DNA of 64,000 nucleotides. Source: Longimicrobiales bacterium. Lineage in GTDB: Bacteria > Gemmatimonadota > Gemmatimonadetes > Longimicrobiales > Gaopeijiaceae. The translations under genes were made by a program, and so were the position numbers. How positions within the stretch are numbered: position 1 is the stretch's first letter; each line of letters begins with the position of its first letter. This document shows positions 3,341 to 49,712 of this stretch, piece by piece. The notes under the pieces were generated by a model, which did no database searches, was not told where the DNA came from, and saw nothing but the letters and a program-made list of their open reading frames with translations. The stretch is from assembly GCA_965219445.1 (NCBI GenBank), contig CBDCNQ010000004.1, positions 320,001 through 384,000 on the forward strand. The letters run 5' to 3'.

Positions 3341-6127
3341 CTAGCTCTCGGTCGTCCCAAACTTGATGTGCACGGTATCTGAATCCTCATCACGAAGCGC
3401 CTTCACCGCATCGTGAATCCCCTGCGTCAATTCGCGCTCTTCACGGAGCGCGTTGATGAGCCCCTCGGCTTCTCTCGCCTCGAAGCTCAGCTTCCCGGCG
3501 GTCGAGATCACATGATCGACCACCGTCCTCTGACTGGTCAGGGACTCGAGGCCGGACCGGATCTCCCTGAGTAAGGCATCCGCCCGTGCAAGACGCACCT
3601 CCGCCTGTTCAATCTGCTGCTGCCGCCCGTCGATATCGTCGAGCGCCTCTCTCATGGCATCCGCCTTGGCCTGCACTGACTCCAGCATCCGGGCGGCACC
3701 CTGTACTTCGTCACGCGCCGCGGAGATGGCCCTCACATCCTCCAGCGTTCGCTCTGACGCAGCAAACAGTTTTTCCACATCGTTGCGGACCTGCCCGACG
3801 CCCTCTTGTCTGGCGAGCAGGGTCTCAATCGACTGTTGGAGCTCCAGCTCCACCCCATCGAGCCGCGCGAGCTTCTCCTCGAACTGGGTGATTCGCTTTT
3901 CGGCGAAGCGTAGGCTGCCGGCCCTGGCCTCCAGCACGTCCGCCCGCTGCCCAATCTTCTCGGACTGCTCCTCGGCGATGACGAGGCTCTCATTCACCCC
4001 CCGGATCTTATCCTCCAAGGATTGGACCATCTCGGCCGCTTCCTTCCTCAGGGTCGACACAGCATCGAGCTGTCCCACCGCCTTCGACAGCGTGCGCTCG
4101 CCCTGGTGGATATCCTCCAACACACGGTCGGCCCGCTCGGACAGTGCGGTGACGGCCTCGGAGCGATCGACTGTCGAGTCGACTCTCTCACCCAACTCAG
4201 CCATTCGCCCCTCGGCCTGCTCAACCGCAGCCACGACCTCCTCGACCACCACGCGAACTTCATCCGCCTTATCGGCGTTCCGTGCAGCGGCCTTGAACCG
4301 ACGATCCGCATCCGTTAGGCCAGTGAGAAGGTTATTGGTGCGCTCGTCCAACTGCGTACCGATCTGACGGAGCTCCGACATCCGGACCTCGAGTTCTTCG
4401 AAAGATTCACGACGCTCGTCCAGATCCGACGCGGCTGTGACGACGCCATCCGCCATCTCCCGCATGTGATCGACGTTCGACCTCAAATCGTCCAGCTGGG
4501 CGACGTTCGCTCGTAGCTCCCCAACTCTTTCCTGGGTCTCGACCAGCCAGGCAGCGGTCTCGTCCTGCCCCATTTGCGTCCGCTCCATCTCGGCCTTCGT
4601 CGCTCGCATTCTCTCCAACGCGCCGGCGACCTCCTCTTGAGCACCACGAAGCGTTCGTAGGTCGTTCACGGCGTTCTCTACGTCGGACTGCCGCGCCTCG
4701 ATGCTGGAGAGAGACGAAGCCACGTCGACGGAGATTCGCCGGGCTTCCGACATCCCTTCCCGCATCCCTTCAACCAACTCCACCTGCTCACTGAGACGGC
4801 CCAACTCCCCAGACAGCGATGTCGTACGAGCAGACATATCGTCGACCCTGCGGTTGGCCTCGTTCAGCGCTTGGCCAGCTTCCTCGAGCTCACGGAAGCG
4901 GTTCTCGAGGTCGGTCACACTGGCCCGGAGAGCGATGACCCGCTGTCCGTCGGCCTCCAACGTGCTTTGCTCCAGCTCGAAGCGTTTGGTGCTACGCCGC
5001 ATCTGCTCCTGCAGCCCAGCTAGCGCCGCCCTCAGCGTCTTGCTATCCCGCTCGACTTGGGACTGCTCCGCCCGCAACTCGTCCGATCGCTCTCCGACCT
5101 TGGCATTCAGCTCGCGGAGGGCCTTCTTCACCTCATTGATCTGCGCTCGGGCGTCTTTCAGCTTCCCCTCGAGTTCCCAGTGGAGGTCGGTGAGCGCCCG
5201 GGCCTGGGCCTCCGTCCGGTCCATCGCCTCACGTTCCCGCTCTACCGCCGCGATCTTCCCGCTGATGTGGTCCGACAGGGTCTTCAGGGCGTTCAACTGC
5301 CGTTCCGTGCGGGCTCCGAGCTCCTCCGCCTTGTTGAGGTCCACCATTGCCTTGTCGACGCGCGCCACATTTGCGTTCGCCCTGTCCACACCGGCGTCGA
5401 CCGATTCCAACTTGGAACGCAAGTCCTTGTACCCTGACGAGATACTCTCTTGCGCCGCTCGAATACCCTCCTGGTCGTCGCTGAGCTGGGCGACTTCCTT
5501 ACCGTAGCTCAACGATTCTTCACGAGCCTGTTCGATCTGCGCTCGCACTCCGGCCAGCGCCCCTTTCGGCCCCGTAATCTCTTCGATCTCCTGCCTGATT
5601 TGCGCGATGGACTGGAGGCCTTCACCCAACTTCGCGACCCTTTCGTCGGCTTCGACCAACCGCCTCGACACCGATTCTACGGAGCTGGTCATCGCCTTCT
5701 GGTCGTCCTCTAGACCTCCTGCTCGCTCATCAATCGTCCCGATCCGGTCTTCGATCCGGGCAAGGTCGGTGGTTCGCGTCTCGAGTCGGTCGGCGGCGCT
5801 CGCACTCTGTTCGACAGTCTCCTTGAGATGTTCCTGGGACCTGCCGATTTCCTCTTCCCGCTGCTCCAGGAGGTCGAGTCGAGAAACAGATTCCGCCAGG
5901 GCGGCCGCGTGCGTCTGTAAGTCCGACGTCTGCGAATCCAGAGATTCGGCAGCGGCCTCGAGCGGATTTCCGAGATCCTCGATTTTCTTCGAGGCGGTCT
6001 CCGACCGCTTCAGAAGATCACGAAGGGCCCTTTTGTCACGATTTGCTTGGGCGAGCAGCTTCATGAGCTCCTCGGGGAGCTCTTCGAGTTCTCCGCTACC
6101 CAGTAGTGACTTGAGCCAAGACTTCAT
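3341..6127 (-). CDS. Long coiled-coil protein (no ATPase motifs)
   Basis: 928 aa, E/R/L/A/Q-rich heptad pattern throughout; GGAGAGG RBS; no Walker A/B. Confidence 0.8.
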   Translation of the reverse strand: MKSWLKSLLGSGELEELPEELMKLLAQANRDKRALRDLLKRSETASKKIEDLGNPLEAAAESLDSQTSDLQTHAAALAESVSRLDLLEQREEEIGRSQEHLKETVEQSASAADRLETRTTDLARIEDRIGTIDERAGGLEDDQKAMTSSVESVSRRLVEADERVAKLGEGLQSIAQIRQEIEEITGPKGALAGVRAQIEQAREESLSYGKEVAQLSDDQEGIRAAQESISSGYKDLRSKLESVDAGVDRANANVARVDKAMVDLNKAEELGARTERQLNALKTLSDHISGKIAAVEREREAMDRTEAQARALTDLHWELEGKLKDARAQINEVKKALRELNAKVGERSDELRAEQSQVERDSKTLRAALAGLQEQMRRSTKRFELEQSTLEADGQRVIALRASVTDLENRFRELEEAGQALNEANRRVDDMSARTTSLSGELGRLSEQVELVEGMREGMSEARRISVDVASSLSSIEARQSDVENAVNDLRTLRGAQEEVAGALERMRATKAEMERTQMGQDETAAWLVETQERVGELRANVAQLDDLRSNVDHMREMADGVVTAASDLDERRESFEELEVRMSELRQIGTQLDERTNNLLTGLTDADRRFKAAARNADKADEVRVVVEEVVAAVEQAEGRMAELGERVDSTVDRSEAVTALSERADRVLEDIHQGERTLSKAVGQLDAVSTLRKEAAEMVQSLEDKIRGVNESLVIAEEQSEKIGQRADVLEARAGSLRFAEKRITQFEEKLARLDGVELELQQSIETLLARQEGVGQVRNDVEKLFAASERTLEDVRAISAARDEVQGAARMLESVQAKADAMREALDDIDGRQQQIEQAEVRLARADALLREIRSGLESLTSQRTVVDHVISTAGKLSFEAREAEGLINALREERELTQGIHDAVKALRDEDSDTVHIKFGTTES

Positions 6128-6286: not shown

Positions 6287-6793
6287 TCATCGGATCAGCC
6301 GTCGCACCGGGACACTGCCTCGGGTCGTCATCTCGATCGGGTGGTCGCCCAATGGCGTGTCCACCGTGAGTTTCGTCTCAAGTGTATAGCCGATCGTACC
6401 CCGCTCCAACAGAGCACGTGCCCCCGCGCCAACTCCCCCCCAACCGAAAGAGAGTGGGAGTTCGATGGGAGTGACCGCCTGTGAGCCGAACCTGGTGGAG
6501 CCATCGAGGAATGCCTCGCCGAAACGAGTGCCCTCGAAGTCGATGGCCATGTCGATCTGACCCGTACGGAGATCATAGGAATTGGGGTTGTCCACGTCGA
6601 CCAGGAGCGTGAGTGATCCACCCGTGAGGCCGAGTCCGTCGATTTGGACCGAAGTGAGGTCGAAGTCGGGCGACTCGAAGCCGCCTTGCTGGAACATCGC
6701 ACACCCACTTGGCACGAGCGCCCAAATCAGGGCAACACAACGAGAGATGGAGATTTTCCCCGCGAAATGGCCGGCATGAACACGTTTTCTCGT
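6287..6793 (-). pseudogene. LEA_2/WHy-domain lipoprotein with its start removed at the IS256 boundary
   Basis: 'VDVDNPNSYDL' LEA_2 motif; frame stays open through a signal peptide (RKRVHAGHFAGKISISRCVALIWALVPSG-C) up to the IS end at 6794 with no start codon ahead of it. Confidence 0.7.
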
Positions 6794-6960
6794 GAGCTAG
6801 GATCAAAGGCATCATAGGGGCATGGCGACCGCTACCGGTACCGATCAGCAGCTAAGCAGCCCGAAGACGAAGAGGCGTTCTCCTCCGGGAGCGGGTGCGC
6901 GTTCATCATTATTCGCGCAAGCAAGCAACCCAACCCGTCCTACCCAAGAGGAGGATGCCC

Positions 6961-8015
6961 ATGGAGAGGTATATCGGACTCGACGCACACGCGTCGAGCT
7001 GCACGCTGGGGATTGTAGGCCCCAGCGGCAAGCGCTTGGGCTCGCAGGTGGTGGAGACGAACGCGCGGGCGCTGATCGAGGTGCTGCGAGGGATTCCGAG
7101 GAACCGGCACTTATGCCTGGAAGAAGGGACGCTGTCGGGGTGGCTGTACGAGGTGCTGAAGCCGCACGTGGAGGAGCTGACGGTGGCGGGGGTCGGCAAG
7201 AGCCGGGGCCCGAAGACCGACAAGCTGGACGCGTTTGCCCTGGCGGAGAAGCTGCGGATCGGATCACTGGAGACGACGGTCTACAAGAACCGGGGCCAGT
7301 TCAGGCGGCTGGGGGAACGGGCGAAGAGCTACGACTTCTTGGTCGGCGACACGGTGCGGGTGAAGAACCGGCTCAAGAGCGTGCTGCGCTCGAGAGGAGT
7401 GGCCTACGGCGCGGGGCGCTCGGTCTACTTAAAGCGCGACCGGGAGGAGTGGTTGGCCAAGCTGCCGGAAGCGAGCAGGACGACGGCCGGGTTGCTGTAC
7501 GAGGAGCACGACGCACTCGTGGCATTGAGGGCGAAGGCCGAGAAGGCGTTGCTGGCGGAAGCACGCAAGCATCGAGAGTGGCATGTGCTGAAGACGTGCC
7601 CGGGTCTGGGTCCGATCCGGACGGCGGAGCTCCTGCCGGTGGTGGTGACGCCGTACCGGTTCCAGAGCCGGAGCAGGTTCTGGGCGTACTGCGGACTGGG
7701 CGTGGTGATGCGGAGCTCGTCGGACTGGGTGCGGGGTCCGGGTGGGCGGTGGGTAAGGGAACCGGTACAGCAGACGCGGGGGCTGAATCGGAACTTCAAC
7801 CACACGCTGAAGCGTGTGTTCAAGGGCGCAGCGACGACGGTGATCGGTCGGGCCGAGGACGAGCCCTTGTACCGCCACTACGAGCGACTCCTGGAGGGGG
7901 GCACGAAGCCGAATCTGGCGAAGCTGACGATCGCGCGTCAGCTCGCCTCGATCGTGCTAGCGGTGTGGCGCACGGGCGAAGCGTACGACCCAAGAGACTG
8001 GAAGCGACGGAGTAA
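6961..8015 (+). CDS. IS110 DEDD transposase/recombinase (1-nt deletion near 7990 relative to copy 2)
   Basis: YIGLDAH, LEEG, KTDKLDA (DEDD), PGLGP, YCGLG..RSSS serine motif; GAGGAGG RBS. Confidence 0.93.
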
Positions 8016-8092
8016 ACCGGCCTGGGATCGGCGAGCGTGGGGTCGAAAGCGGTCACAACATGGGGTCCGACGAAACGGAAGCGAACCGGTTA

Positions 8093-8228
8093 CAGGGGAC
8101 AGCATCCATACACACCGTGGGCCGGGGCAGAGAGCCCAAGCCCCCACTCAAAGGCTATGCACCCCTGGAAGAGCCGAACGAAGCGATGGGCCACAGAGTC
8201 CCAGATAGAAGGATGGTTCCCGCTCCAG
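8093..8228 (+). ncRNA. Putative bridge/seek RNA core (target-binding and donor-binding loops)
   Basis: Stem CAGGGG..GCAT/ATGC.CCCCTG encloses loop strands TACACACC (8109-8116) and TCAAAGG (8148-8154) matching the insertion target; second stem-loop carries ATAGAAGG (8205-8212) matching the element end; transcript ends unknown. Confidence 0.8.
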
Positions 8229-8382
8229 AGCGGAGAACGCGACGGCTGTGAACGTCTTCCGGACTGCGATGCGGACCCTGCGAGCGCACCCCTCCCCACC
8301 CTGAGTCGTCGACCGGGCAATCCAAACCATGCGGACGCCGACGGTCAAAAAATGAGCCGACGGCGCGTGGGGAAGGTGCGTC

Positions 8383-8405
8383 TTGACCGCCAGCCCCATA
8401 GAAGG
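8383..8405 (+). promoter_or_regulatory. -35 half of a circle-junction promoter
   Basis: TTGACC at 8383-8388; joining the ends places CATCAT (6810-6815) exactly 17 bp downstream. Confidence 0.7.
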
Positions 8406-8501
8406 GTGTGTAAAAAAAGAGGCGACGTACCTTTCCGCTAGGTAGTAAGAAGTTAACCAGCGAATCCCGGGTGAGCGCCCGGGGGAAAGGAACGATGCCT
8501 C

Positions 8502-9746
8502 GTGAGGAAGAATATGGTGGGACCCGAGAGTGAGTCCAGCACGCCGACGTGGGAGTGCTTGGAAGCGCTGGTTCGTGAGAAGGCCCAGGAGATGGTCCAG
8601 CGGATTCTGGAGGAGGAAGTGACGGAGTTGCTCGGCCGGGAGAAGTCGGAGCGGAAGACGGTCGTAGACCCGGCGCCAGGCTACCGCAACGGCTACGGCA
8701 AGGCTCGGCGGCTGGCGATGAGCTCGGGCACGATCATGCTCCGACGGCCCCGGGTTCGAGGCATTGAGGAGCGGTTCGAGAGTCGGGTGTTGCCGTTGTT
8801 CGCACGACGGACGAAGGAGGTGGGTGCTCTGCTTCCGGAGCTGTATCTGCACGGGCTGGCGGAGGGAGACTTCGAGCTGGCGATGCGGGGCCTGCTGGGC
8901 GAGGGGGCCCCGTTGTCGAAGTCTTCGATTTGGCGGCTGCGGGCGGGATGGACAAGGAAATTCGAGGAATGGTCGAAGCGCTCGCTGGCCGACCGTGAGG
9001 TCGTCTACGTCTGGGCGGACGGGATCTACGTGAAGGCGGGGCTCGAGCGGGACAAGGCAGCGCTGCTGGTGGTTCTCGGTGCGATGCGAGATGGTACGAA
9101 GGAGGTGTTGGCCCTGAGATCGGGCTACCGAGAGTCGGTCGAGTCCTGGTCCGAGGTGTTGCGGGATCTGAAGGCACGCGGCATCGAGGCGCCCCGGCTT
9201 TTGATGGCGGACGGCAACGCGGCGATCTGGGGCGCAGTACGGCAGGTATGGCCTGAGGCGGGCGAGCAACGGTGCTGGAACCACAAGATGAGGAACGTGC
9301 TGGACCGGCTGCCTCAGCGGGAGCAGAGCGAGGCGAAGGACCTTCTCAGGACCGTGGTCTACGCACCGAGGCGGTCCGAGGCGCTGAAGGCCCGTGAGGC
9401 GTTCGCCAGGCGCTACAGACCGTGGTATCCGAAGGCGGTGGATGTACTCGAGGACGACTGGGAGCGGATGGTGGCGTTCTACGACTTCCCCGAGGACCAC
9501 TGGAAGCATCTACGCACGACGAACGTGGTCGAGAGCCCCTTTGCCGCAGTACGGCTCAGGACAACGGCGGCGAAGCGCTTCAAGCGGGTCGAGAGCGCTA
9601 CGGCGCTGATCTGGAAGCTGCTCTTGGTGGCGGAGAAGCGCTTCAGAAGGCTCGACGCTCCTCACCTCCTCAAGGACGTATTTGAAGGAAGAAAGTTCGA
9701 AGACGGAAAGCCCGTCTCAACCCAACAGCGGAAAAACGCCGCCTGA
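8502..9746 (+). CDS. IS256-family (Mutator) DDE transposase
   Basis: YRNGY, LYLHGL, WADG, MADG, QRCWNH, LRTTNVVES motifs; 414 aa. Confidence 0.95.
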   Translation: MRKNMVGPESESSTPTWECLEALVREKAQEMVQRILEEEVTELLGREKSERKTVVDPAPGYRNGYGKARRLAMSSGTIMLRRPRVRGIEERFESRVLPLFARRTKEVGALLPELYLHGLAEGDFELAMRGLLGEGAPLSKSSIWRLRAGWTRKFEEWSKRSLADREVVYVWADGIYVKAGLERDKAALLVVLGAMRDGTKEVLALRSGYRESVESWSEVLRDLKARGIEAPRLLMADGNAAIWGAVRQVWPEAGEQRCWNHKMRNVLDRLPQREQSEAKDLLRTVVYAPRRSEALKAREAFARRYRPWYPKAVDVLEDDWERMVAFYDFPEDHWKHLRTTNVVESPFAAVRLRTTAAKRFKRVESATALIWKLLLVAEKRFRRLDAPHLLKDVFEGRKFEDGKPVSTQQRKNAA

Positions 9747-9775
9747 AACATTTACACACCTATTGACCCAACCTC

Positions 9776-10970
9776 CTCGGGTAACGCCCATATCCTGAGC
9801 AACAACCATGTGATGGCGAACTCCAACAACGCCAGCATTGGGGACAACATCCTGCAACCCGGGCCGTTCGACGGAGGCTCCGCCCCGGCGGACATCATCG
9901 GCACCCTCTCTGCGTTTGAGGAGATCAGGTTCGACGGCAGCAACAACGTCATAGACGCCGCGATCGCGAGCGTCGCCCCGGGCGATGTGATGTCCCATAC
10001 CGGGAATGAGGGATATGGCCAGCCGAGCGCCACAACGGTGGCGGCTACAACCGGCATGTCGGTGACGAAGTACGGCCGCACGACCGAGGCAACCGTCGGC
10101 ACCGTGGATGCAACCAACGCCACGGTCGATGTCTGTTACCAGACGCAAGGCCCATTTCGTTGTAAAAAACTCGCCCGCTATGTGGGCCAGGTCGTCATCA
10201 CCCCCGGCACATTTAGCGACGGAGGGGATTCCGGATCGGGGATCGTGACAAATGACAACAACCTAAACCCGGTGGCACTCCTCTTCGCGGGAAGCTCATC
10301 GTATACGATCGCCAATCCGATCGACGCGGTGTTGAGCGCGTTCAACGTTACGATCGACGACGGCAGTGGCAGTACGGGCGGCAGCGGTGGGGGCAACAGC
10401 TCCCCGACAGCGTCGTTTACGTCCAGTTGCTCGAACCTCACTTGCAGCTTCGACGGATCGGGCTCCTCCGACGACGGTTCGATTGCGAGCTGGGACTGGG
10501 ACTTCGGCGACGGGAGCCCGGCGGAGTCCGGCCCGACGCCCCAACACACTTACAGCGGGAACGGCACGTACAACGTGACGCTGACTGTCACAGACGATGA
10601 AGGTGCAACCGACACGGAGAGCCAGAATGTCTCGGTCACGCAGCCGGCTACGGGTCAGCACGTCGGCGATCTCGACGGTAGCGGCCAAAACAACGGCTCT
10701 ACCTGGACGGCCGTTGTCACGATCACCGTCCACGATGCCAACCACTCGCCGGTCGCGGGGTTCTCGGTGACCGGCTTATGGTCGGGGCCCGTTGCCGGAT
10801 CCGGGGACTGCATCACAGGCCCGAATGGTCAATGCACGGTGAGTCGCGGGGGTATACGGAAGCGGGACGGAAGCGTGCAATATGACGTGACGAATGGATC
10901 GGCGACGGACGACAACCACGACCCGGATGGTGATAGCGACGGGACCACGATTACGGTGACTAAACCGTAG
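9776..10970 (+). pseudogene. 5'-truncated trypsin-like (Nal1-type) serine protease with PKD domain
   Basis: Frame begins at the IS end with 'ILSNNHV' (His), 'IDAAIA' (Asp), 'GDSGS' (Ser), 'K.GRTT', PKD 'WDFGDG'; signal peptide and prodomain absent. Confidence 0.8.
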
Positions 10971-44101: not shown

Positions 44102-44842
44102 TTAAACCCTATGACAGCAATTATTTACGTGACTGGACATTCGATCCAACGGGGAGTGCGTGCGGACCGACGTGTCGTGAAGAGAAAAGGCGACTGCCTC
44201 ATCGTACTGACGGGAGGCCTCCTCTTGGGCAATAGTCATCAGGTCGTTGGAGACTCCTGCTAACCCCAACGCAGCAGAATAGATGAGGCCAAGCTGGCTT
44301 TTTTGCAGCTCGGTGAGACTTCCGCTCTGCCCATTCCGCAACGCCTCGGCAAGGAAAAGGATCGAGGTGAGAGGCGACCGCAGATCGTGAGCCACTTCAG
44401 CCACGAGTCGAAATGCGTTGGTTTCCGGCATTAGGGGCTCGAAGCCCTCGATGGCCGGTGCTTCGGCGAGGAGATCTATCGAGTGCAGCAATGCGAGAAC
44501 TCGATCCTGGTCGACGATTGGGTCCTCACGGTGCCATTGCTCGAGGAGACTCCTCCGAATCGCCGCAAGCAGGCGTACGTCGGTGTGCTCCAACGTCTCT
44601 TGCCCTTCACCATCCTCATACAGGACTCGGCCATCGCCGACCCGGTCCAGACGTATTGCGATGCGCATCAGTGCGTGGTCTATGGAGGATTCGCCGTCGG
44701 ACCCATTGGTCCAGTGGGGAGCCCACTCGGCAGATACCTCCCGAAGCGCCGTCTGGAGAGCGGGGCAGAACACCGCGGCAAACGGGTCGCTCGACCGGCG
44801 CTCGTCGACCGGATTCAGACCGGATGCGTCTGCGAGCATCAA
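44102..44842 (-). pseudogene. Truncated sensor histidine kinase (HisKA only)
   Basis: H-box 'EVAHDLRSPLTSI'; no N/G boxes, HATPase domain absent. Confidence 0.75.
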
Positions 44843-45463
44843 TCCGGCTCCGGCAGTAGGGTGGTGCGGTGGGTTCCGTGCTTCTCCATGAGTCGATAGA
44901 GCGTCGTCCGGTCTACACCCGCATGCCGAGCCGCGTTGGAGATGTTTCCACCCGCCTGCTTGACAGCGTGCTCCAGATACGCCCGCTCGAAATCCGCCAG
45001 AATCAACTCACGGGCCTCATGGTAGCCCTTGTTCAGGTGGGACGACATGGGAGCGAATGCAGCTTCGGGCGAGACACCCTCACCCTCGAAGAAGGGGATC
45101 TCGTCGGGTCCGAGTTGTTGCCCGGGAGGTCGCAGCACTGAGATGCATTCGATGATGTTTCGCAGTTCTCTCACGTTGCCGAGCCAGGGACGGGCACGTA
45201 GTGACGCGAGGCCTTCGGGCGTAAAGATAGGGCGATCGAGTTCCTTCCCACGGTGTCGAATCCAGAACTCATCCAGAAAGGATTCGGCCAACGTCTCGAT
45301 GTCGTCTGGGCGCTCCCTGAGTGGCGGTATGTGAATCGGGAAGACCCGGAGCCGGTAATACAGATCTCCCCGCAGGCGCTTTTCTTTGAGCGCCTCAGTG
45401 GCGTCTTCGTTCGTGGACGAGATGAATCGTACTTGAGGTTGGGTCAATAGGTGTGTAAATGTT

Positions 45464-46708
45464 TCAGGCGGCGTTTTTCCGCTGTTGGGTTGAGACGGGC
45501 TTTCCGTCTTCGAACTTTCTTCCTTCAAATACGTCCTTGAGGAGGTGAGGAGCGTCGAGCCTTCTGAAGCGCTTCTCCGCCACCAAGAGCAGCTTCCAGA
45601 TCAGCGCCGTAGCGCTCTCGACCCGCTTGAAGCGCTTCGCCGCCGTTGTCCTGAGCCGTACTGCGGCAAAGGGGCTCTCGACCACGTTCGTCGTGCGTAG
45701 ATGCTTCCAGTGGTCCTCGGGGAAGTCGTAGAACGCCACCATCCGCTCCCAGTCGTCCTCGAGTACATCCACCGCCTTCGGATACCACGGTCTGTAGCGC
45801 CTGGCGAACGCCTCACGGGCCTTCAGCGCCTCGGACCGCCTCGGTGCGTAGACCACGGTCCTGAGAAGGTCCTTCGCCTCGCTCTGCTCCCGCTGAGGCA
45901 GCCGGTCCAGCACGTTCCTCATCTTGTGGTTCCAGCACCGTTGCTCGCCCGCCTCAGGCCATACCTGCCGTACTGCGCCCCAGATCGCCGCGTTGCCGTC
46001 CGCCATCAAAAGCCGGGGCGCCTCGATGCCGCGTGCCTTCAGATCCCGCAACACCTCGGACCAGGACTCGACCGACTCTCGGTAGCCCGATCTCAGGGCC
46101 AACACCTCCTTCGTACCATCTCGCATCGCACCGAGAACCACCAGCAGCGCTGCCTTGTCCCGCTCGAGCCCCGCCTTCACGTAGATCCCGTCCGCCCAGA
46201 CGTAGACGACCTCACGGTCGGCCAGCGAGCGCTTCGACCATTCCTCGAATTTCCTTGTCCATCCCGCCCGCAGCCGCCAAATCGAAGACTTCGACAACGG
46301 GGCCCCCTCGCCCAGCAGGCCCCGCATCGCCAGCTCGAAGTCTCCCTCCGCCAGCCCGTGCAGATACAGCTCCGGAAGCAGAGCACCCACCTCCTTCGTC
46401 CGTCGTGCGAACAACGGCAACACCCGACTCTCGAACCGCTCCTCAATGCCTCGAACCCGGGGCCGTCGGAGCATGATCGTGCCCGAGCTCATCGCCAGCC
46501 GCCGAGCCTTGCCGTAGCCGTTGCGGTAGCCTGGCGCCGGGTCTACGACCGTCTTCCGCTCCGACTTCTCCCGGCCGAGCAACTCCGTCACTTCCTCCTC
46601 CAGAATCCGCTGGACCATCTCCTGGGCCTTCTCACGAACCAGCGCTTCCAAGCACTCCCACGTCGGCGTGCTGGACTCACTCTCGGGTCCCACCATATTC
46701 TTCCTCAC
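45464..46708 (-). CDS. IS256-family transposase
   Basis: Protein identical to 8502-9746. Confidence 0.95.
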   Translation of the reverse strand: MRKNMVGPESESSTPTWECLEALVREKAQEMVQRILEEEVTELLGREKSERKTVVDPAPGYRNGYGKARRLAMSSGTIMLRRPRVRGIEERFESRVLPLFARRTKEVGALLPELYLHGLAEGDFELAMRGLLGEGAPLSKSSIWRLRAGWTRKFEEWSKRSLADREVVYVWADGIYVKAGLERDKAALLVVLGAMRDGTKEVLALRSGYRESVESWSEVLRDLKARGIEAPRLLMADGNAAIWGAVRQVWPEAGEQRCWNHKMRNVLDRLPQREQSEAKDLLRTVVYAPRRSEALKAREAFARRYRPWYPKAVDVLEDDWERMVAFYDFPEDHWKHLRTTNVVESPFAAVRLRTTAAKRFKRVESATALIWKLLLVAEKRFRRLDAPHLLKDVFEGRKFEDGKPVSTQQRKNAA

Positions 46709-46981
46709 GAGGCATCGTTCCTTTCCCCCGGGCGCTCACCCGGGATTCGCTGGTTAACTTCTTACTACCTAGCGGAAAGGTACGTCGCCTCTTTTTTTAC
46801 ACACCCTTCTATGGGGCTGGCGGTCAAGACGCACCTTCCCCACGCGCCGTCGGCTCATTTTTTGACCGTCGGCGTCCGCATGGTTTGGATTGCCCGGTCG
46901 ACGACTCAGGGTGGGGAGGGGTGCGCTCGCAGGGTCCGCATCGCAGTCCGGAAGACGTTCACAGCCGTCGCGTTCTCCGCT

Positions 46982-47116
46982 CTGGAGCGGGAACCATCCT
47001 TCTATCTGGGACTCTGTGGCCCATCGCTTCGTTCGGCTCTCCAGGGGTGCATAGCCTTTGAGTGGGGGCTTGGGCTCTCTGCCCCGGCCCACGGTGTGTA
47101 TGGATGCTGTCCCCTG
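46982..47116 (-). ncRNA. Putative bridge/seek RNA core, copy 2
   Basis: Same guides (47093-47100, 47055-47061) and stems as 8093-8228. Confidence 0.8.
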
Positions 47117-47193
47117 TAACCGGTTCGCTTCCGTTTCGTCGGACCCCATGTTGTGACCGCTTTCGACCCCACGCTCGCCGATCCCAGGCCGGT

Positions 47194-48249
47194 TTACTCC
47201 GTCGCTTCCAGTCTCTTGGGGTCGTACGCTTCGCCCGTGCGCCACACCGCTAGCACGATCGAGGCGAGCTGACGCGCGATCGTCAGCTTCGCCAGATTCG
47301 GCTTCGTGCCCCCCTCCAGGAGTCGCTCGTAGTGGCGGTACAAGGGTTCGTTTTCGGCCCGACCGATCACCGTCGTCGCCGCGCCCTTGAACACACGCTT
47401 CAGCGTGTGGTTGAAGTTCCGATTCAGCCCCCGCGTCTGCTGTACCGGTTCCCTTACCCACCGCCCACCCGGACCCCGCACCCAGTCCGACGAGCTCCGC
47501 ATCACGACGCCCAGTCCGCAGTACGCCCAGAACCTGCTCCGGCTCTGGAACCGGTACGGCGTCACCACCACCGGCAGGAGCTCCGCCGTCCGGATCGGAC
47601 CCAGACCCGGGCACGTCTTCAGCACATGCCACTCTCGATGCTTGCGTGCTTCCGCCAGCAAGGCCTTCTCGGCCTTCGCCCTCAATGCCACGAGTGCGTC
47701 GTGCTCCTCGTACAGCAACCCGGCCGTCGTCCTGCTCGCTTCCGGCAGCTTGGCCAACCACTCCTCCCGGTCGCGCTTTAAGTAGACCGAGCGCCCCGCG
47801 CCGTAGGCCACTCCTCTCGAGCGCAGCACGCTCTTGAGCCGGTTCTTCACCCGCACCGTGTCGCCGACCAGGAAGTCGTAGCTCTTCGCCCGTTCCCCCA
47901 GCCGCCTGAACTGGCCCCGGTTCTTGTAGACCCTCGTCTCCAGTGATCCGATCCGCAGCTTCTCCGCCAGGGCAAACGCGTCCAGCTTGTCGGTCTTCGG
48001 GCCCCGGCTCTTGCCGACCCCCGCCACCGTTAGCTCCTCCACGTGCGGCTCCAGCACCTCGTACAGCCACCCCGACAGCGTCCCTTCTTCCAGGCACAAG
48101 TGCCGGTTCCTCGGAATCCCTCGCAGCACCTCGATCAGCGCCCGCGCGTTCGTCTCCACCACCTGCGAGCCCAAGCGCTTGCCGCTGGGGCCTACAATCC
48201 CCAGCGTGCAGCTCGACGCGTGTGCGTCGAGTCCGATATATCTCTCCAT
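47194..48249 (-). CDS. IS110 DEDD transposase/recombinase (intact, 351 aa)
   Basis: DEDD and Ser motifs; GAGGAG RBS before ATG 48249. Confidence 0.93.
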   Translation of the reverse strand: MERYIGLDAHASSCTLGIVGPSGKRLGSQVVETNARALIEVLRGIPRNRHLCLEEGTLSGWLYEVLEPHVEELTVAGVGKSRGPKTDKLDAFALAEKLRIGSLETRVYKNRGQFRRLGERAKSYDFLVGDTVRVKNRLKSVLRSRGVAYGAGRSVYLKRDREEWLAKLPEASRTTAGLLYEEHDALVALRAKAEKALLAEARKHREWHVLKTCPGLGPIRTAELLPVVVTPYRFQSRSRFWAYCGLGVVMRSSSDWVRGPGGRWVREPVQQTRGLNRNFNHTLKRVFKGAATTVIGRAENEPLYRHYERLLEGGTKPNLAKLTIARQLASIVLAVWRTGEAYDPKRLEATE

Positions 48250-49712
48250 CGGCGTTCTCCTCTTGGATAGGTGGGTTGCTTCCTTGCGCGAACAATGATG
48301 AACGCGCACCCGCTCCCGGAGGAGAACGCCTCTTCGTCTTCGGGCTGCTTCGCTGCTGATCGGTACCGGTAGCCGTCGCCATGCCCCTATGATGCCTTTG
48401 ATCCTAGCTCTCGTACTTCGGCCAGGACGTCAGTGTCGGTGCTCCCCACACGGCGGATAACCCCATCTTGGATGACCCTGAGAAGCTTGGCCTGAGTGGG
48501 CATCGGCATCTGGGTGAGCTCATCCAGGAAAAGGGTCCCGCCGCTGGCTATCTCCATCAGACCCTTCTTGTCGCTCACCGCGCCCGTGAATGAGCCAGCG
48601 ACGTGTCCGAACATCTCCGACTCCACCAGATTGTCGGGGACGGCGGCACAGTTGATCGACACCATCGACCGACTGCTTCTCCGGCTGTTCTGGTGGATGA
48701 ATTGCGCGATCAACTCTTTGCCCGTGCCGCTCTCGCCGCTGAGGAACACAGTGGCATTCGTACGTGCGACGCTCCTGGCCATGTCGACAACCCGCCCAAG
48801 AGCAGCCGATTGACCAAGAATAGGGATCTCCGCGCCGTATCCCAATCCGGTCTCGTGGCTCTGGTACTGCTTGTCGCTCTCTCTCGACACGACGATCGCG
48901 TGCGCGGCCCGCCCCATGAGAATGTGGAGATGGGTAGCCGAAAAGGGCTTCGGGATATAGTCCCAAGCCCCCAGACGAAGGGCCTCGAGGCTGGTCTCCA
49001 CCGACGGCTTCCCGGTCATCATGACGACCAAGCACTCTTCGTCCTTCTCCACCGCAGCGTTCAGGAGATCCATTCCCGAGACGTCTCGCATGTAGAGGTC
49101 GAGCAGAACGATCTCAAAATGACGACGACGAATGAAGTCGAGAGCCTCCTCTCCGCCCGCCGTTACTGGAAACCCTTCGGCACGAAGCAAGGACGCACAA
49201 CTCTCGCGGAGGCTGTGGTCGTCGTCGACCACGAGTACGGGCATGGTCGATTTTACGTCGGTCTCGACGATCGTCGGGGGCCTCTCGCTGCCAGGCGTCC
49301 CTGTGGCTTCGGACGTCTTCAAGCTCGCCGGTCCCTCAGGTAGATGCCGCGGTTACAGTTGCGGAGACACGGATTCATACTCGATCCTCATTTGGGGCCT
49401 CGCCATTCAGGGGCAGTAAACATACGTTGCTGGAGGTACGCCGCAACGCACCTGTGGACTTCATGCAACGGTTCGTGTGTGGAGGTGCCATGAATCAAGC
49501 GGGGGGTAGGAGCCGAATCCCCAGTGTTTGCAAGTGTTTGCAAGAGTTTCGGTGAGTTCTTATTCTCCCGGAACATGTCGGTATCGGTCGTGCTGTGCTT
49601 CGGCTCTCGAGGGCTCACACGGCCATTCTGGGACAATCGATTCGTTGAGTAAATATGAACAAATGTTTGAGTGGAAGTAAACAAAAAGACGTGTTGGGAC
49701 GATGAGGACACC

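What the first reader, a model, noticed from the sequence alone, without database searches (positions are those of the whole stretch)
6794..8412. RNA-guided IS110 element apparently programmed to insert into the terminal inverted repeat of an IS256 transposon
Seen: removing 6810-8405 rejoins GAGCTAGGATCAAAGG and GTGTGTAAA into a 25-bp IRL that matches the IS256 IRR at 20/25 positions. The same junctions occur in the second copy (46805-48394). Established: IS110 recombinases use a non-coding bridge/seek RNA to choose targets, and IS4321/IS5075 target Tn21-type IRs. Inference: this is an IS110 specialised on IS256 ends, a hyperparasite that lands in non-essential DNA, probably disables its host element, and could restore the IRL by scarless excision. 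I do not know of this pairing having been described.
Basis: partly seen in the sequence, partly recalled or inferred. Interest (0 to 1): 0.92.

Follow-up and report, generated by a model that had tools for sequence, protein, structure and literature searches.

The report
RNA-guided jumping gene targeting IS256 ends
A small jumping gene carries a guide RNA that spells out the left end of another jumping gene (IS256) and has landed in nearly every copy of that end in this bacterium; it is a well-supported new example of a known habit, with hints of an arms race between the two elements.

Summary
Observation confirmed. A 1.6-kb IS110-family element (6809-8404) sits after bp 15 of a 25-bp IS256 left inverted repeat (IRL). 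In this genome 23 of 24 copies follow an IRL half, 0 of 29 complete right repeats (IRR) are hit, and no intact IRL is left: all 5 uninterrupted IRLs are altered in the target. The predicted empty IRL exists in relatives (41 copies in G044). The right non-coding end folds into a two-loop bridge RNA; its guides match the IRL and covary with the flanks of relatives (108 of 136 and 168 of 216 positions, shuffles 67 and 91). Other genomes: 25 of 28 left junctions lie in IS256 repeats, one, with changed guides, in an IRR. Insertions look independent, not hitch-hiked. 'Disables its host' is plausible but untested; 'scarless excision restores the IRL' is doubtful. The mechanism is known (IS4321/IS5075 on Tn21 ends), an IS110/IS256 association was noted unresolved in Paracoccus (PMC11578231), and this scan found IS110 in IS256 ends before on other DNA. 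New member of a known kind.

The parts
6794..6808 (+). Outer half of the IS256 IRL (bp 1-15), ending in the AG core (6807-6808); left half of the target
   Evidence: same 15 bp begin uninterrupted IRLs in relatives
6809..8404 (+). IS110-family element, copy 1 (1,596 bp, one AG core copy at 8403-8404)
   Evidence: 24 left ends at 98-100% identity in the genome; boundary from relatives
6810..6815 (+). Predicted -10 hexamer (CATCAT) of the promoter formed when the ends join in the circle
   Evidence: 17 bp from the -35 after joining; inference, no circle seen
6814..6827 (+). Left subterminal inverted repeat, imperfect, 7 bp inside the core-inclusive left end
6961..8208 (+). DEDD recombinase gene (D8, E54/E55, D87, D90; S253 aligns with the IS621 serine). 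This copy lacks one C at 7988 and reads through to 415 aa; 17 of 23 copies give 351 aa
   Evidence: contigs of runs X1, X3, X6 all have the C, so it may be an assembly error
8093..8219 (+). Predicted bridge RNA core: target-binding hairpin 8093-8167, donor-binding hairpin 8171-8219
   Evidence: single-sequence fold (z only -0.6 and -1.2); 15-sequence consensus, 12 of 30 pairs with changes on both sides; no Rfam match
8109..8116 (+). Right target guide TACACACC, complementary to IRL bp 16-23
8146..8154 (+). Left target guide ACTCAAAGG; TCAAAGG equals IRL bp 10-16
8205..8212 (+). Left donor guide ATAGAAGG, equal to the element's own right end
   Evidence: 35 of 35 positions over 5 distinct guides, shuffles 26.6, 176 of 20,000 reach it
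8383..8399 (+). -35 hexamer TTGACC (8383-8388) and right subterminal repeat (8388-8399), followed by a 3-bp extension
8405..8414 (+). Inner half of the IS256 IRL (bp 16-25) with the TGTAAA motif; right half of the target
   Evidence: motif in PMC7780238
8502..9746 (+). IS256 DDE transposase, 414 aa, intact
9751..9775 (-). IS256 IRR, uninterrupted
48396..48410 (-). Copy 2: outer half of the IS256 IRL
46806..48395 (-). Copy 2: IS110 element (1,590 bp), recombinase gene 47194-48249, 351 aa
45435..46805 (-). Copy 2: inner IRL half, IS256 transposase (45464-46708) and IRR; body identical to copy 1
45427..48418 (-). Copy 2 with its 8-bp target duplication (45427-45434, 48411-48418), splitting a sigma-54 response-regulator gene (48387-49322 and 44839-45528)

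Best explanation
An IS110-family bridge recombinase element of IS1111-like layout whose guide RNA is set to the IRL of a Longimicrobiales IS256 group. The ends join into a circle that forms a promoter (inferred); the right-end RNA binds the recombinase (inferred from the family); its target loop pairs with both IRL strands around an AG core and its donor loop with the element's own junction (shown by covariation, not by experiment); recombination puts the element after IRL bp 15 in one orientation (shown by junctions). It colonises resident IS256 copies one by one, most likely by copying, until matching IRLs run out, as in this genome. The IRR escapes because it differs at and beside the core. 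The occupied IS256 keeps an intact transposase gene but has a split left end and probably moves poorly (inferred, about 0.65).
For: 23 of 24 left junctions follow the outer IRL and 22 right junctions enter the inner IRL; 0 of 29 complete IRRs occupied; the 14-bp target occurs 0 times intact in the genome. Guides lie on the two strands of one internal loop. Left guide against left flank 108 of 136 over 17 distinct guides, shuffle mean 67.0; right guide 168 of 216 over 27 guides, best of three registers, mean 91.4 (fixed register 112 of 216, mean 65.2); 0 of 20,000 shuffles reach any of them. IRL-junction pattern in 8 of 301 family genomes, 4 genera. Independent insertion: 11 composites with identical IS256 bodies carry 11 different IS110 haplotypes, mean 13.6 differences; hosts range from 59 to 100% transposase identity; one IS256 site occupied here (C5 1030825) has the same left flank and is empty in G007 (L101).
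Against: No experiment, no RNA evidence (the one RNA run covered two short pieces) and no circle joint seen. Saturation is not general: G044 has 1 full-length IS110 with intact guides and 41 perfect empty IRLs; G132 has 6 occupied and 4 perfect empties; G007 keeps perfect empties. A 12-bp target match at G000 C1 205750 is unoccupied. Off-target copies: 1 of 24 here, and 3 of 28 left junctions elsewhere. IS110 haplotypes are mosaic (326 of 528 site pairs fail the four-gamete test), so conversion or assembly mixing blurs the hitch-hiking test. Kin are not independent, so shuffle counts overstate.
Confidence: 0.88

Rival explanations
1. Hitch-hiking: one or a few insertions happened, and IS256 then spread the 3-kb composite using the 15-bp outer IRL half.
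For: ISCth4 junctions with only 14 bp of the left repeat still integrate in vitro (PMC7780238). In G042 all 5 composites share an unusual IRL allele and four IS110 copies differ by 0-3 bases. 10 of 24 complete IS256 units have a matching 8-9 bp duplication, which fits either order of events.
Against: 11 identical IS256 bodies hold 11 different IS110 haplotypes, 0 of 55 pairs identical; several divergent IS256 alleles are occupied; an orthologous site is empty in G007; the guides themselves spell the IRL.
Confidence: 0.12
2. The IRL is only the commonest match to a guide that arose against something else; the element is not adapted to IS256.
For: The left guide matches the off-target site at 8 of 8 and the IRL at 6 of 8; relatives at 81% identity and below have other guides and no IS256 beside them.
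Against: The right guide matches the IRL at 8 of 8; all relatives at 95% or more keep IS256-matching guides; the G042 guide has moved closer to the IRL (7 of 8) and the L029 guide fits the IRR (6 of 8, against 2 of 8 for the IRL in that register).
Confidence: 0.1
3. The altered empty IRLs of this genome are assembly or polishing errors, not biology (bears on the arms-race reading only).
For: With 21 occupied against 5 empty copies, reads from the IS110 right junction could overwrite bases left of the core and give the same donor-like letters; one change is a loss of one A in a run; the assembly has a probable homopolymer error at 7988; duplications are shuffled between copies.
Against: Two of the five (one A>G, one T>A) are not donor-like, and the T>A allele also occurs in G041; four different changes occur at four loci; multi-copy core variants in G042 (8 and 2 copies) cannot be such errors.
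Confidence: 0.3

Closest known systems
IS4321 / IS5075 (IS1111 group)
   Same: Insert at one position in the terminal repeat of another transposon; circle junction with promoter; target sites can be fully occupied (PMC5001619 passages; Partridge and Hall 2003 seen only as a title in reference lists).
   Different: Target is the Tn21-family repeat, not IS256; this element hits the left repeat only; its subterminal repeats are imperfect; its recombinase is about 25% identical to the best plasmid-borne IS110 proteins.
ISEc11, ISKpn4, ISPa11 (IS1111 seekRNA elements)
   Same: Long non-coding region downstream of the gene; top-strand complement precedes bottom-strand match; 7-bp and 3-bp terminal extensions; natural reprogramming among relatives (PMC11187229).
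   Different: Other targets; near-perfect 11-13 bp subterminal repeats and a GL-P----S(t)G motif, neither clearly present here.
ISEc21 (IS110 group)
   Same: RNA-guided element that targets another IS family (PMC11187229).
   Different: Hits the IS3 transposase coding region; RNA upstream; guide order reversed.
IS621 bridge recombinase
   Same: Two-loop RNA with target and donor guides around a 2-bp core; catalytic serine aligns.
   Different: RNA in the left end, REP target, CT core; similarity weak (E 0.049).
ISPye46 of Paracoccus yeei (IS110 family)
   Same: Found flanking IS256- and IS5-family transposase genes; preferential insertion into them suggested (PMC11578231 passages).
   Different: No target site, repeat or guide was resolved in the passages seen; arrays have an IS110 at both sides; relationship to this element not tested.

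Membership tests
IS110 family (broad, DEDD bridge recombinases) | N-terminal DEDD RuvC domain and C-terminal Transposase_20 domain with catalytic serine | tested here: met
   PF01548 39.7 bits, PF02371 32.4 bits, both above cut-off; D8, E54/55, D87, D90; S253 aligned to the IS621 serine. NF033542 112 bits is below its cut-off of 140.
IS110 family (broad, DEDD bridge recombinases) | Non-coding RNA with target and donor loops that pair with target and donor DNA | tested here: met
   Fold and covariation; the right donor guide was not identified
IS110 family (broad, DEDD bridge recombinases) | Fixed site and orientation, no true target duplication | tested here: met
   23 of 24 copies; only the AG core is shared by both junctions
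IS110 family (broad, DEDD bridge recombinases) | Circular intermediate with junction promoter; RNA expressed and bound | tested here: inconclusive
   -35/17 bp/-10 geometry present; no circle joint in four runs of contigs, which cannot show absence
IS1111 group | Long non-coding region downstream of the gene | tested here: met
   about 390 bp downstream against about 150 bp upstream
IS1111 group | Top-strand complement precedes bottom-strand match in the RNA | tested here: met
   8109-8116 precedes 8146-8154 (rule from PMC11187229)
IS1111 group | Near-perfect 11-13 bp subterminal inverted repeats with 7/3-bp extensions | tested here: inconclusive
   7/3 spacing fits, but 6814-6827 and 8388-8399 match at 12 positions only with two 1-base bulges
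IS1111 group | GL-P----S(t)G motif | tested here: not met
   reads GLGVVMRSSS at 245-254
IS1111 group | Recombinase falls in the IS1111 clade | not tested
   no ISfinder reference set at hand; therefore filed as IS1111-like in layout, not as a member
IS256 family (host element) | Mutator-type DDE transposase, terminal repeats with TGTAAA, 8-9 bp duplication | tested here: met
   NF033543 295 bits; motif in both repeats; duplications at 10 of 24 complete units

The most novel reading that the evidence does not exclude
The pair is a visible arms race. The RNA-guided element acts as a brake that ends IS256 bursts by occupying every matching IRL; IS256 copies persist free only where the target is altered, either as spreading core-variant alleles (G042: 5 of 5 AG-core IRLs occupied, 0 of 10 core-variant IRLs) or as footprints of imprecise IS110 loss that immunise the site (this genome: 3 of 16 near-identical copies, each with a different change just left of the core, 0.06-0.09 expected); and the guide answers by retuning, including a switch from IRL to IRR (L029).
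Probability: 0.3. Interest if true: 0.72.

Novelty: new member of a known kind. Interest (0 to 1): 0.5.

Why it matters
It gives an unusually complete natural data set for one bridge RNA: over 50 insertions, a built-in near-miss control (the IRR, 20 of 25 identical, never hit by this guide), off-target sites, unoccupied target alleles and relatives with changed guides, in a recombinase clade about 25% identical to the best plasmid matches. It makes testable whether RNA-guided elements limit the spread of other insertion sequences, and whether they ever leave a site precisely, a point on which recent papers disagree. It is not a new mechanism.

Tried and rejected
the first left-guide test was one base out of register and gave a null (40 of 136, shuffles 37.0); repeated in register. 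The best-of-three register for the right guide was chosen after seeing the data and applied to the shuffles too. Of 55 aligned right ends, 4 were dropped for gaps in a guide; only rows with a readable flank and a guide not yet counted entered (17, 27, 5). Single-sequence folding energies are not unusual (z -0.60, -1.20). Rfam: 0 matches. Reads: no circle joint and no skip of the element in 4 runs held as contigs, uninformative; the RNA run covered only 7044-7329 and 9256-9289; a loose-end flank with an intact IRL in X1 is not in this genome. 'All empty IRLs are escape mutants' was rejected as a general rule: perfect empties coexist with the element in G044, G132, G007 and G086, the AAAAG allele is in 37 of 40 IRLs of G159, whose related IS110 has other guides, and the AAATG allele is in G180, where no junction was found. 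A metagenome IS256 relative has a natural AGAAG spelling (L157), which weakens the footprint idea. The IRR retargeting rests on one copy whose right flank does not match the guide, and 6 IRRs in that genome are empty. No truncated composite whose left end begins inside the IS110 right end was found in this genome. Partridge and Hall 2003 is not held; ISPye46 and ISPye43 were not found in the 10 supplement files held as text. No structure prediction or protein tree was run.

Full report
Observation. The window is G000:C4:320001-384000. At 6794-9775 lies an IS256 element (414-aa transposase, NF033543 above cut-off) whose left repeat is split by a 1,596-bp element with an IS110-family recombinase (PF01548, PF02371). 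The rejoined repeat matches the right repeat at 20 of 25 positions. Copy 2 (45435-48410, minus strand) has the same junctions, an identical IS256 body and an 8-bp duplication, and splits a sigma-54 response-regulator gene. Relatives in which the first base right of the element is A rather than G fix the element at 6809-8404 with an AG core. The nearest loci (95-99% amino-acid identity) are titled Longimicrobiales MAGs, so the host is probably of that order (inference).

Genome census. There are 24 left ends of the element; 23 follow the outer IRL half and 1 (C2 336726) lies elsewhere; a 57-bp remnant of a different variant was set aside. 21 right ends run straight into the inner IRL half, and one more does so with a group II intron-like element 3 bp further on. 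Of 29 complete IRRs none is occupied. The intact 14-bp target occurs 0 times. The 5 uninterrupted IRLs all differ within the target: one lacks an A, one has an extra G, two have A>G changes left of the core, one has T>A right of it. A 21-bp IRL stub on C1 matches 12 bp of the target and is empty.

The guide RNA. The 390-bp right end folds so that 8109-8116 and 8146-8154 face each other across one internal loop. The first is complementary to IRL bp 16-23, the second repeats IRL bp 10-16; matches this long to both halves arose in 68 of 20,000 simulated ends. In relatives these columns are the variable ones between conserved stems, and 12 of 30 consensus pairs show changes on both sides. Guides track flanks: 108 of 136 positions for 17 left guides (shuffle mean 67.0) and 168 of 216 for 27 right guides (mean 91.4), 0 of 20,000 shuffles reaching either; a second loop holds a donor guide that equals the element's own end at 35 of 35 positions over 5 guides (176 of 20,000 shuffles). 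Related loci are not independent, so these counts overstate. The order of the guides and the downstream position are those of IS1111-type elements (PMC11187229). Joining the ends gives a -35 and a -10 hexamer 17 bp apart. The off-target site here equals the left guide at 8 of 8.

Other genomes. The IRL-junction pattern is in 8 of 301 family genomes (4 genera) and an uninterrupted IRL in 18 of 301 (counts include G000). Left junctions of close copies in an IS256 repeat: G007 6 of 6, G042 5 of 6, G043 2 of 2, G044 1 of 1, G041 1 of 1, G132 6 of 7, G086 4 of 5, together 25 of 28. The G041 copy (L029, 95% identity) has both guides changed and follows the outer half of an IRR; its right flank is unrelated, so this retargeting rests on one junction. 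Three of four copies of a G086 variant sit in the IRL of an IS256 only 59-68% identical in protein. Relatives at 81% and below have other guides and no IS256 next to them. The specialisation is therefore confined to a recent branch of a clade that reprograms often.

Independent insertion or hitch-hiking. Eleven composites with identical IS256 bodies carry 11 different IS110 haplotypes (mean 13.6 differences, 0 of 55 pairs identical). One IS256 site occupied here is empty in G007. This favours insertion into resident copies after an IS256 burst. Against certainty: haplotypes are mosaic, only 10 of 24 complete units keep matching duplications, and the flanks of window copy 1 belong to two different original insertions, by recombination or mis-assembly.

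Effect on the host element. In ISCth4 the transposase binds bp 1-12 and bp 14-25 of the repeat separately (PMC7780238 passages); insertion after bp 15 moves most of the second site 1.6 kb away. A shortened left repeat still integrated in vitro (section 15), so 'disabled' is likely but not shown. Scarless restoration is doubtful: no rejoined target for ISEc11, 0 deletion junctions against 5,248 circles for IS4321, and two preprints argue for copy-out (abstracts only); IS621 does yield post-excision junctions.

Possible arms race. In G042 the 5 IRLs with an AG core are all occupied and the 10 with a changed core are all free, within one IS256 lineage (bodies differ by 1-30 bases between occupied and the commoner free allele). 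In G000, 3 of 16 near-identical copies carry a change in the 14-bp target where 0.06-0.09 are expected from the rate in their bodies (P about 1e-4); all three can be spelled as left flank plus the element's last bases, as imprecise loss would leave. But polishing errors predict the same letters, such alleles also occur where no junction was found, and G044 holds 41 perfect empty targets beside an apparently intact element. I give this reading 0.3.

Prior knowledge. Targeting of another transposon's terminal repeat is known for IS4321/IS5075, and of IS3 genes for ISEc21. PMC11578231 reports IS110-IS256/IS5-IS110 arrays and leaves preferential insertion open. Nine full-text searches listed no paper that defines an IS256 repeat as a bridge-RNA target; 'IS256' occurs 0 times in PMC11187229, PMC11208160 and bioRxiv 2026.08.14.744561. 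Subscription papers, ISfinder, TnPedia and the target tables in supplements of those papers were not seen and may hold such a case. Read: PMC11187229 parts 1, 2 and 5 of 9 plus passages; PMC13626964 abstract and section 5; PMC7780238 passages and section 15; passages of PMC11208160, PMC5001619, PMC11578231 and 2026.08.14.744561; abstracts of 2025.10.25.684509 and 2026.08.31.748434. The scan's own notes list IS110 elements in IS256 ends in other genomes, one archaeal (unchecked), and none resembling this protein, which suggests the pairing arose more than once.

Verdict. Interest 0.5.

Noticed in passing
G000 C4:1169770-1171667 and 12 other places: A 1,898-bp group II intron-like element (reverse transcriptase with YADD; class IIC by its ends and its position behind hairpins, recalled) in 13 copies at 99% identity; one sits 3 bp into the inner IRL half behind the IS110 end, making a three-layer nest.
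   Followed up: partly
window 6786-6793 and 9776-9783: Copy 1 has unmatched flanks: its left duplication partner is at C5 657022 and its right partner at C4 199261; joining that left flank to window 9784 onward gives an open frame (199 + 131 codons) of a protease-like PKD-domain gene. A 126-kb segment appears moved by recombination between copies or mis-assembled.
   Followed up: partly
G000 C5:1612735-1613245; L025/L116: Tandem duplications of the 3' part of the IS110 element, each including the whole guide RNA (one extra copy here, two in G043).
   Followed up: no
L175, L179, L183 (G159): A 77%-identical relative with different guides sits in a repeated non-IS256 sequence in at least two of three copies; the third is followed by a copy of its own target loop.
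   Followed up: no
L181 (G132 C4): A copy whose right junction enters a full IS256 but whose left flank is not an IRL, yet matches the left guide at 7 of 8: possibly a recombinase-made rearrangement.
   Followed up: no
G000 C4 1173281 and C4 110844: Two composites 1 Mb apart share the 9 bases just outside the IRL; the first has a 5-bp duplication 6 bp further out, as if it carried a circle-junction spacer from the second.
   Followed up: no
G005, loci L005 and L015: A 40%-identical relative has 15 copies in tight clusters in a same-genus genome, with its own matching right guide; target not identified.
   Followed up: no
window 3341-6127 (-): A 928-aa coiled-coil protein with only weak repeat-like Pfam hits.
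   Followed up: no
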